Assembly: GCF_050920415.1 (NCBI RefSeq)
Contig: NZ_CP169309.1
Reading direction: 5' to 3' (one strand)
DNA length: 64,000 nt
From: Escherichia coli
GTDB lineage: Bacteria > Pseudomonadota > Gammaproteobacteria > Enterobacterales > Enterobacteriaceae
Shown here: positions 25,283 to 26,803 of the stretch, in pieces
Layout of the letters: each line of letters starts with the position of its first letter
Numbering within the stretch: position 1 is the stretch's first letter
Program-made: the position numbers and the translations under genes
Notes under the pieces: generated by a model
What the model saw: only the letters and a program-made list of their open reading frames with translations
The model's database searches: none
Told to the model about the DNA's origin: nothing

Positions 25283-26803
25283 TTATTCAGGCTTTAATTT
25301 ATTGATAATAGAATCTACCATTTTAATGCCTGCCTCATTGACTATGACTGAATTGACTACTCTATCAAAATAGTCTTCTATATGGTGGGAAAATAGGAAA
25401 GCAGCACTTGATGGTTTTTTGTTCTTTTCAACTGCAGATTGCAAGACTTCATGAGGCGGAATTTTAAACCTTTTGCATGATGCAATGAGATATTCAAACT
25501 CTTCAAATGATAGACAAAAAATATTCTCTGTAGGGATATGATAGTTATGTTTAAACTTGTCATATATCTTATTCATCTCATCTTTAGCATAAGTATTAGC
25601 TAGGATACTACCATTGCCTAAGAAAAGGTTTTTATATGTAATGCAAATGATATATGAGTTAGCCCTGAATGGAGCTATTATTCGCTCATTAGAGTATATT
25701 TCTCGATTAACTTCGTGAGATTGTTCGATTGCTTTTAATACCGATTTCTTTATTTTTCCTGCAATATCCTCAGGGCGTAATGTTACCATGCCTTTTTGGT
25801 GTATCTCAACGCCTTTAGCATCAATGAAAATATTTGCCTCAGTATGTGGAATGAAATAATCAACTACTTTATTATCTTTAGGTAGTCGTTCTTTAAGGTA
25901 TTTTTCGTTATGAAAATCAATTTCGCTTTCTTTTAGTATTAATTCCAGTGCATTTTCAAATACATTTCCAAAGCTATCCATGAACTTCTCGGCATCAGTT
26001 CTTCTTAAAAGATCATATATGAACGTCTGTATGCTTGTTGAAGTCAGTTGTGTGTGTATCTGAAAATACTCTGAACCTTTTTTTATTAATGGTTTTTCAA
26101 GGAAAGGTGATGATGAGTAGTATTCAAGCAAAGGTTTATCATAGGTTTTTGATTTGCAAAATGTAGATAGTTCATTGTAATTTATTGATATTGCATCAAG
26201 AAATTTCTCAATGGTATTTCTAGGAATGATGTCAAATAATATAGTAAATGTATCTACATTCATTTTTCTCACGGGATGCTCTTCTGTTATGTGAGTTATT
26301 AATATGTAAGATAGCTTAAGAAAGTCTTCGATAGATACATTCGTGATAGTAAAAAAACTTGTCTTTATTTTATGGTTTTTTTCAAGTTCTGAAAATAGAA
26401 AGACTTGTCTGCTAATTGTGTTTAGAGCGTCAATTTTCTGGTAGATTCCTTGTTGGTATAGATTATTTCTAATGAAGAAATGCATGCCATTCTTCCTCTC
26501 AAGACCGATAGGAATAATGTTCAAGGTTTCATAAGTTTTTTGGAAGAGTTTTATTGCTTGATTTTTATCGAGGATTTTGAATTTTTTATTCTTGCCAGTT
26601 ACTGACGCAGACCACTTTAGACATAAATTAACAATCCAAGGCATGTGTCGTAACATGTGGATATTATCTTCAAATTTTTGTAAGTTATATTGCATACAGA
26701 ATTCGATAAATAAATCAGGGGAATAACCTTGGATTTCTGAACGAATAGCATCCATTCTTAACTTTGCAACCGCATCAGATTGAATATCTAATTTTTGAAT
26801 CAC
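25283..26803 (-). CDS. Hypothetical 506-aa protein, AT-rich cargo gene between att repeat and int
   Basis: Long ORF with strongly AT-biased codon usage; starts 13 nt downstream of the int stop in the same orientation; no family recognised by eye. Confidence 0.6.
   Translation of the reverse strand: MIQKLDIQSDAVAKLRMDAIRSEIQGYSPDLFIEFCMQYNLQKFEDNIHMLRHMPWIVNLCLKWSASVTGKNKKFKILDKNQAIKLFQKTYETLNIIPIGLERKNGMHFFIRNNLYQQGIYQKIDALNTISRQVFLFSELEKNHKIKTSFFTITNVSIEDFLKLSYILITHITEEHPVRKMNVDTFTILFDIIPRNTIEKFLDAISINYNELSTFCKSKTYDKPLLEYYSSSPFLEKPLIKKGSEYFQIHTQLTSTSIQTFIYDLLRRTDAEKFMDSFGNVFENALELILKESEIDFHNEKYLKERLPKDNKVVDYFIPHTEANIFIDAKGVEIHQKGMVTLRPEDIAGKIKKSVLKAIEQSHEVNREIYSNERIIAPFRANSYIICITYKNLFLGNGSILANTYAKDEMNKIYDKFKHNYHIPTENIFCLSFEEFEYLIASCKRFKIPPHEVLQSAVEKNKKPSSAAFLFSHHIEDYFDRVVNSVIVNEAGIKMVDSIINKLKPE

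What the first reader, a model, noticed from the sequence alone, without database searches (positions are those of the whole stretch)
25283..26803. 506-aa AT-rich ORF inserted between the att repeat and int, probably co-transcribed with cI-int
In P2/186-like prophages the integrase normally abuts the attachment site. Here a 1.5-kb low-GC gene lies between the ssrA-derived 45-bp repeat and int, starting 13 nt after the int stop in the same orientation, so it would be expressed from the lysogenic cI-int transcript, i.e. in the lysogen. That is the expression pattern expected for lysogenic-conversion or superinfection-defence cargo. I recognise no family or motif by eye.
Basis: partly seen in the sequence, partly recalled or inferred. 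Interest (0 to 1): 0.75.

Follow-up and report, generated by a model that had tools for sequence, protein, structure and literature searches.

The report
GapS1 anti-phage gene in prophage

Summary
The ORF is real: 25283-26803 on the minus strand, 506 aa, GTG start with a GGAG Shine-Dalgarno, 12 nt after the int stop, 31% GC against 52% for the rest of the prophage. It matches NCBIfam NF047931.1 "antiphage_GapS1" end to end (428.5 bits, cutoff 320). The identical protein is WP_000615103.1, named gapS1 in RefSeq. It keeps the PD-(D/E)xK residues that are essential in Vibrio GAPS1 (D313/K328, here D315/K330). Its AlphaFold model (pLDDT 94.6) has a restriction-endonuclease-like C-terminal domain. 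An E. coli homologue about 78% identical (WP_152927281.1) protected E. coli against coliphages in the founding paper. [quoted passage not shown] Related ssrA prophages show that the att-int interval is a variable slot. It is empty or holds GapS1 alleles, an anti-phage dCTP deaminase, an HNH endonuclease, RES-like proteins or unknown proteins. A 2026 preprint already lists int-att as a minor P2 defence hotspot. Co-transcription with cI-int is likely from the gene spacing but was not shown. Verdict: observation confirmed, interpretation supported, already known, low interest.

The parts
25105..25150 (.). attL core: 46-nt exact copy of the 3' end of ssrA
   Evidence: Direct repeat D1, 100% identical to 61026-61071; the tmRNA gene is at 61027-61389.
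25151..25263 (.). Conserved phage-side att arm. It ends in tandem repeats TGCCGCCA-AAA-TGCCGCCA (25245-25263), which may be Int arm-type sites (inferred).
   Evidence: 77-87% identical in nine related loci. Similarity stops at exactly this position in all of them.
25264..26815 (-). Variable cargo cassette (1552 bp): gapS1 plus 19 nt downstream and 12 nt upstream of it
   Evidence: No similarity to relatives between the arm and the int stop. Relatives carry other genes or nothing here.
25283..26803 (-). gapS1 CDS, 506 aa (identical to WP_000615103.1)
   Evidence: ORF. NCBIfam NF047931.1 E=3.1e-128, 428.5 bits against a cutoff of 320, profile 1-455/455. RefSeq name gapS1. Cluster name 'MULTISPECIES: GapS1 family protein'.
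25805..25906 (-). Codons for the PD-(D/E)xK catalytic core: E300, D315, D328-A-K330, E333
   Evidence: D315 and K330 are invariant in 85 diverse family members. They align with the essential D313 and K328 of Vibrio GAPS1, reconstructed from the mutagenesis primers. They lie on strands 316-319 and 324-330 of the model.
26811..26814 (-). Shine-Dalgarno GGAG, 7 nt upstream of the GTG start
   Evidence: Read directly from the sequence.
26816..27829 (-). Tyrosine integrase gene (int), 337 aa
   Evidence: ORF; RefSeq 'site-specific integrase' in identical loci.
27831..28463 (-). CI repressor gene, 210 aa, 1 nt upstream of int
   Evidence: ORF; RefSeq 'phage repressor protein CI'.
61026..61071 (.). 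attR core inside the intact ssrA (tmRNA) gene; the other end of the ~35.9-kb prophage

Best explanation
The ORF is a gapS1 gene: a single-protein anti-phage defence system of the GAPS1/GapS1 family, carried as accessory cargo by a P2/186-like (Peduoviridae, Elveevirus-like) prophage integrated in ssrA. The protein has a helical N-terminal region of about 295 residues, presumed to be the sensor, and a C-terminal PD-(D/E)xK phosphodiesterase domain that is the effector. By analogy with the studied family members, it is made in the lysogen and stays inactive. When a heterologous phage infects, that phage's major capsid protein triggers it. The nuclease activity then arrests the cell (dormancy or abortive infection), so the invader does not spread. 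Shown here: family membership, catalytic residues, fold, and the gene's position in a variable slot. Inferred: expression from the cI-int (pL) transcript, the capsid trigger, and the dormancy outcome for this particular allele.
Against: This allele has not itself been tested for defence. PADLOC-DB v2.0.0 (2023) and Pfam give no hit, which is expected because the family was described later. The molecular target of GAPS1 is unknown even in the founding paper. The trigger may differ between alleles, since the N- and C-terminal ends are the most divergent parts. Transcription in the lysogen was not measured.
Confidence: 0.9

Rival explanations
1. It is an orphan or solitary type II restriction endonuclease, or part of a restriction-modification system.
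For: The best structural matches of the C-terminal domain are restriction and nicking endonucleases.
Against: The cassette contains nothing but this gene, with 19 and 12 nt of flanking non-coding DNA, so there is no adjacent methyltransferase. The prophage Dam gene (30351-31268) is a core gene also present in phage Cartapus, which lacks gapS1. Sequence identity to any restriction enzyme is only 8-14%. The full-length match is to GapS1, which acts through a capsid-triggered, dormancy-type mechanism.
Confidence: 0.03
2. It is a prophage-addiction toxin or a nuclease used by the phage itself (replication, host DNA degradation), not a defence against other phages.
For: PD-(D/E)xK nucleases are also used as toxins and phage enzymes, and activated GAPS1 arrests growth.
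Against: There is no room for an antitoxin gene in the cassette. The gene is dispensable for the phage, because close relatives including the isolated phage Cartapus lack it or carry unrelated genes in its place. Homologues give phage defence without toxicity when expressed alone.
Confidence: 0.04
3. It is a silent hitch-hiker: intact but not expressed or not functional in this host.
For: The GC content is very low (31%) and the gene starts with GTG. No promoter of its own stands out: promoter-like hits in the region are at the chance level, 13 found against 11.5 expected.
Against: The ORF is 99.8-100% identical at the DNA level and intact in 14 complete E. coli genomes, and its protein is 99.6% identical in 12 Klebsiella phages. 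The catalytic residues are conserved. It has a proper SD and sits 12 nt after int with no predicted terminator between them. Other same-strand cargos in this slot sit between 4 nt of overlap and 40 nt after int.
Confidence: 0.03

Closest known systems
GAPS1 of Vibrio parahaemolyticus RIMD 2210633 (WP_005477165.1; Mahata et al., bioRxiv 10.1101/2023.03.28.534373)
   Same: It is a single protein of about 500 aa with a C-terminal PD-(D/E)xK domain. The catalytic D and K are at equivalent positions (D313/K328 against D315/K330), and the IFIDAKGVE motif is identical. Both fall in the same NCBIfam family.
   Different: Overall identity is low: the paper gives 24-29% for its E. coli homologues. The Vibrio gene is carried on a GMT island rather than a P2-like prophage. 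The capsid trigger and dormancy were shown for the Vibrio protein, not for this allele.
E. coli GAPS1 homologue WP_152927281.1 (tested in the same paper)
   Same: P0018, which matches the first 126 residues of the synthesised gene at 126/126, is 77-78% identical to this protein over the full length. It protected E. coli against several coliphages.
   Different: It is a different allele, and its annotated start is 16 residues further in. About 22% of residues differ, most of them at the N- and C-terminal ends, so the phage range may differ.
int-att defence hotspot of P2-like prophages (bioRxiv 10.64898/2026.02.27.708500); P2 old/tin hotspot (Rousset et al. 2022, PMC9122126)
   Same: Accessory defence genes are swapped between conserved phage flanks. 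The preprint lists the int-att interval as holding 3% of P2 defence systems.
   Different: The classical, much richer P2 hotspot lies between gpA and the portal gene. In this window that hotspot (33680-38190) holds a DinI-like gene, unknown ORFs and a decayed IS21, not a recognised defence system.
Upx defence protein (PDB 9wuf) and restriction-endonuclease-fold defence nucleases (Shedu SduA, Avs3 nuclease domain, Can2, NucC)
   Different: Identity is 10-12% and TM-scores are low (0.36 on the query). Upx is 1212 aa long. There is no sequence-level relationship.

Membership tests
GapS1 / GAPS1 anti-phage defence family | Full-length match to the curated family model (NCBIfam NF047931.1) above its cutoff | tested here: met
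   E=3.1e-128, 428.5 bits against a cutoff of 320; residues 20-474 on profile 1-455/455.
GapS1 / GAPS1 anti-phage defence family | Stand-alone single protein of about 500 aa with a C-terminal PD-(D/E)xK phosphodiesterase domain | tested here: met
GapS1 / GAPS1 anti-phage defence family | Catalytic Asp and Lys equivalent to D313 and K328 of Vibrio GAPS1, which are essential for defence | tested here: met
   D315 and K330 are invariant in 85 members. They align to the Vibrio sequence rebuilt from the mutagenesis primers; essentiality is shown.
GapS1 / GAPS1 anti-phage defence family | Confers resistance to phage infection | not testable with these tools
   This has only been shown for homologues, including one about 78% identical and an endogenous one in strain ZH142-A.
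GapS1 / GAPS1 anti-phage defence family | Activated by a phage major capsid protein; the outcome is dormancy | not testable with these tools
   Shown for Vibrio GAPS1 with T7 Gp10. Growth arrest at high MOI was shown for ZH142-A.
Prophage defence hotspot (variable cargo slot between conserved flanks) | Different genes, or none, occupy the same position in closely related prophages, with fixed junctions | tested here: met
   The left junction falls at the same base after the TGyCGCCA repeat in nine loci, and the right junction at the int stop. Slot contents are listed.
Prophage defence hotspot (variable cargo slot between conserved flanks) | Enrichment of recognised defence genes among the alternatives | tested here: met
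   Alternatives include an anti-phage dCTP deaminase (NF041025.1, 420.5 bits; PADLOC dCTPase), an HNH endonuclease (PADLOC HNH) and two further GapS1 alleles.
Type II restriction-modification system | A cognate DNA methyltransferase linked to the endonuclease | tested here: not met
   There is no other ORF in the cassette; the neighbours are int and the att arm.
Toxin-antitoxin module | An adjacent antitoxin gene | tested here: not met
   Only 19 and 12 nt of non-coding DNA flank the gene within the cassette.

The most novel reading that the evidence does not exclude
Placing a capsid-sensing abortive-infection nuclease at the end of the cI-int (pL) operon may be functional rather than accidental. 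Expression would be tied to the lysogenic state and shut off on induction, through Apl/Cox repression of pL and interference from the convergent lytic promoter. The prophage would then avoid being aborted by its own capsid protein. This would explain why same-strand cargos in this slot all sit within 40 nt of the int stop. Separately, the unannotated cargos found in the same slot are candidate new defence genes: a 327-aa protein and a 418/421-aa RES-like pair.
Probability: 0.3. Interest if true: 0.4.

Novelty: already known. Interest (0 to 1): 0.15.

Why it matters
For annotation, the gene should be called gapS1, an anti-phage defence gene, and not a hypothetical protein. It marks this ssrA prophage as a carrier of superinfection defence that is shared almost unchanged between E. 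coli and Klebsiella pneumoniae: the protein is 99.6% identical, and the first ~25 kb of the prophage are 97.6% identical over 81% of their length. This is relevant to phage-therapy host range. It adds nothing new in kind. The family, its catalytic motif, its trigger, its presence in Peduoviridae prophages and the int-att slot as a minor hotspot are all published. The small open points are how the gene is expressed in this slot, what this allele senses, and what the unknown alternative cargos do.

Tried and rejected
- PADLOC-DB v2.0.0 gave no hit; that database predates the family.
- Pfam gave nothing significant; the only hit was TPD at E=0.1.
- PHROGs gave only families of unknown function, phrog_14259 and phrog_34771.
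- The PDB sequence search with the single protein found nothing meaningful. With the 85-sequence profile it found only weak hits to short DivIVA/GpsB coiled coils (E>=0.011), which I treat as noise. No solved GapS1 structure was found.
- The promoter scan found no promoter for the gene above chance level, and the terminator scan found no terminator between int and the ORF.
- On the minus strand I saw no clear intrinsic terminator after the ORF inside the prophage. The first convincing hairpin with a T-run is on the host side at 24955-24979.
- I looked in the founding paper's supplements for WP_000615103, and it is not listed there. The synthesised gene sequences are truncated at about 400 nt, so only the first 126 residues of the tested homologues could be compared.
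- I found no paper text that states explicitly that int lies on the pL transcript of phage 186. That step rests on my own knowledge of 186 and on the 1-nt cI-int spacing.
- I considered restriction-modification, toxin-antitoxin and silent hitch-hiker readings and rejected them; see the rival explanations.

Full report
**Observation**

The window holds a ~35.9-kb P2/186-like prophage bounded by an exact 46-nt direct repeat, 25105-25150 and 61026-61071. The second copy is the 3' end of the tmRNA gene ssrA at 61027-61389.

On the minus strand the gene order is cI (27831-28463), int (26816-27829), then the ORF in question (25283-26803, 506 aa). The int stop TAG is at 26818-26816. GGAG lies at 26814-26811 and the GTG start at 26803-26801, so the intergenic spacer is 12 nt.

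The ORF has 31.4% GC and 27.8% GC3. For comparison, int has 47.8% and 48.2%, and the rest of the prophage has 52.0% GC. The only corrections are 46 nt rather than 45 for the repeat, and a 12-nt spacer.

**What the gene is**

- **Earlier libraries are uninformative.** Pfam and PADLOC-DB v2.0.0 give no significant hit, and PHROGs gives only families of unknown function.
- **NCBIfam identifies it.** NF047931.1 "antiphage_GapS1" matches at E=3.1e-128 and 428.5 bits against a curated cutoff of 320, covering profile positions 1-455 of 455.
- **Public databases agree.** The exact sequence is on record as "MULTISPECIES: GapS1 family protein [Enterobacteriaceae]" on at least 1000 contigs. In RefSeq E. 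coli genomes it is WP_000615103.1, gene gapS1.
- **The family is large.** A profile search of 1.84 billion representatives found 1553 members at E<=1e-3, almost all single proteins of about 500 aa.

**What is known about the family**

GAPS1 was discovered on a Gamma-Mobile-Trio island of Vibrio parahaemolyticus (Mahata et al., bioRxiv 10.1101/2023.03.28.534373). The paper reports the following:

- It is a single protein with a C-terminal PD-(D/E)xK phosphodiesterase domain, and D313A or K328A abolish defence.
- T7 escape mutants map to the capsid protein Gp10.
- Co-expression with Gp10 causes dormancy rather than death.
- Three E. coli homologues protect against coliphages.
- Deleting the endogenous homologue of isolate ZH142-A sensitises it to phage BASEL21.

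**Membership tests done here**

From the paper's mutagenesis primers I rebuilt the Vibrio active-site sequence: DNKIQGKVV-D313-FLHQRNGTSIFIDA-K328-GVEPNQKI. The window protein reads DNKVV-D315-YFIPHTEANIFID328A-K330-GVE333. D315 and K330 are two of only five invariant columns in an alignment of 85 diverse family members.

The AlphaFold2 model is confident, with mean pLDDT 94.6 and pTM 0.93. It shows a helical region up to about residue 295, followed by an alpha/beta domain with D315 next to strand 316-319 and D328/K330 on strand 324-330.

The supplement's synthetic-gene sequences link the tested proteins to proteins in my search. WP_152927281.1 is identical over its first 126 residues to P0018, which is 77-78% identical to the window protein. 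EJP5250929.1 is likewise identical to P0031, which is 57-58% identical. A close relative has therefore been tested experimentally, but this exact allele has not.

**The slot**

Blast of the att-to-cI region against 5426 complete E. coli genomes found this allele in 14 of them. Three more genomes carry diverged gapS1 alleles (66-68% nucleotide identity), and at least two of those three lie in the same att-int slot. The 60 closest loci have the following slot contents (checked on representatives):

| Slot content | Loci |
|---|---|
| This GapS1 allele | 14 |
| A diverged GapS1 (510 aa, NF047931.1 at 391.9 bits) | 1 |
| Empty | 19 |
| Anti-phage dCTP deaminase (opposite strand) | 13 |
| HNH endonuclease | 4 |
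| 327-aa protein with no family | 5 |
| 418/421-aa protein family with a sub-threshold RES-domain match | 4 |

Further points about the slot:

- The isolated phage Cartapus, 97.5% identical over 79% of the query, carries a "putative RES protein" in the same place.
- Klebsiella phage ST437-OXA245phi4.1 has a 49%-identical GapS1 that overlaps the int stop by 4 nt.
- In all nine loci compared, the conserved att arm ends at the same base, right after tandem TGCCGCCA-N3-TGyCGCCA repeats (window 25245-25263). The other junction is the int stop.
- The window cassette is therefore 25264-26815, essentially just the gene.
[quoted passage not shown] The classical hotspot is between gpA and the portal gene.
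- The INPHARED survey reports GAPS1 plus Lamassu in 12 phages. These are probably the 12 Klebsiella Kp48xx phages, whose protein is 99.6% identical to this one.

**Expression**

Co-transcription with cI-int is supported only indirectly:

- The spacers are 1 nt between cI and int and 12 nt between int and the ORF.
- The gene has its own SD.
- No terminator is predicted between int and the ORF, and promoter-like hits are at chance level.
- The eight other same-strand cargos sit between 4 nt of overlap and 40 nt after int.

That the lysogenic promoter of P2-like phages faces the lytic promoter and is repressed by Apl/Cox comes from PMC7498355. That pL reads through cI and int in phage 186 is my own knowledge; I could not find it stated in the texts I searched. 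If true, gapS1 would be expressed in lysogens and turned down on induction. This is an inference.

**Rivals**

- **Restriction-modification:** ruled out by the lack of a linked methyltransferase.
- **Toxin-antitoxin:** ruled out by the lack of any second ORF in the cassette.
- **A phage-essential function:** ruled out by empty and alternative slots in close relatives.
- **A silent hitch-hiker:** unlikely given the conservation and the gene's layout, but not formally excluded.

**Verdict**

The gene, its family, its mechanism in outline and its location as a hotspot are all already known, so interest is low. The residual questions are how cargo in this slot is regulated, which phages this allele senses, and what the unannotated alternative cargos do.

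Noticed in passing
L007:471-1451 (-), E. coli SCU-106, WP_052521740.1: A 327-aa protein occupies the same att-int slot, overlapping the int stop by 4 nt. It has no Pfam, NCBIfam or PADLOC hit at all, and five of the 60 closest loci carry it. Its location makes it a candidate unknown defence gene.
   Followed up: partly
L004:664-1917 (-), L006:440-1702 (-); L012:2584-3789 (-) in phage Cartapus: A family of proteins of 418 and 421 aa, 38% identical to each other, occupies the same slot. Both have only a sub-threshold RES-domain match (E=0.11 and 0.55). Phage Cartapus carries a 401-aa 'putative RES protein' in the same position. These may be an NAD+-targeting defence or toxin.
   Followed up: partly
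window 25245-25263: Tandem repeats TGCCGCCA-AAA-TGCCGCCA form the last conserved bases of the att arm. Every alternative cargo in nine related loci begins immediately after them. They may be Int arm-type sites that also mark the recombination boundary of the slot.
   Followed up: partly
window 33680-38190: The classical P2 hotspot between gpA and the portal gene holds no recognised defence system here. It contains a DinI-like ORF (33961-34266), an unknown 243-aa ORF (34326-35057), a decayed IS21 with split istA/istB fragments (35378-37338, GC ~0.57), and a 232-aa ORF (37486-38184). The 232-aa ORF appears to correspond to Cartapus gp01 by position and length; gp01 is annotated as DUF4145. The ORF has a weak PD-T7-4 hit (E=1.2e-6).
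   Followed up: partly
window 20330-24945: The host autotransporter gene ypjA/ehaD next to attL is split into two ORFs (20330-24229 and 24235-24945), so it appears frameshifted. It is intact in strain ETEC4089 and annotated as frameshifted in strain 127.
   Followed up: no
window 24955-24979: A strong hairpin (GCCCAC-ATCT-GTGGGC) is flanked by an A-run on one side and TTTC on the other. It lies between the ssrA remnant and the end of ypjA. On the minus strand it is the first convincing terminator that transcripts leaving the prophage through gapS1 would meet.
   Followed up: no
window 28480-28520 and 28670-28680: The motif ATTTGATA(C/T) is repeated in the cI-apl intergenic region and again inside the apl-like gene. 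The copies look like CI operator half-sites of a 186-type switch.
   Followed up: no
GapS1 model mb7d57f639b97 against PDB 9wuf: The best Foldseek hit for the whole GapS1 model is the recently solved 1212-aa Upx defence protein (E=1.6e-4, 534 aligned columns, TM 0.36 on the query). This hints at a distant relationship that may extend beyond the nuclease core.
   Followed up: no
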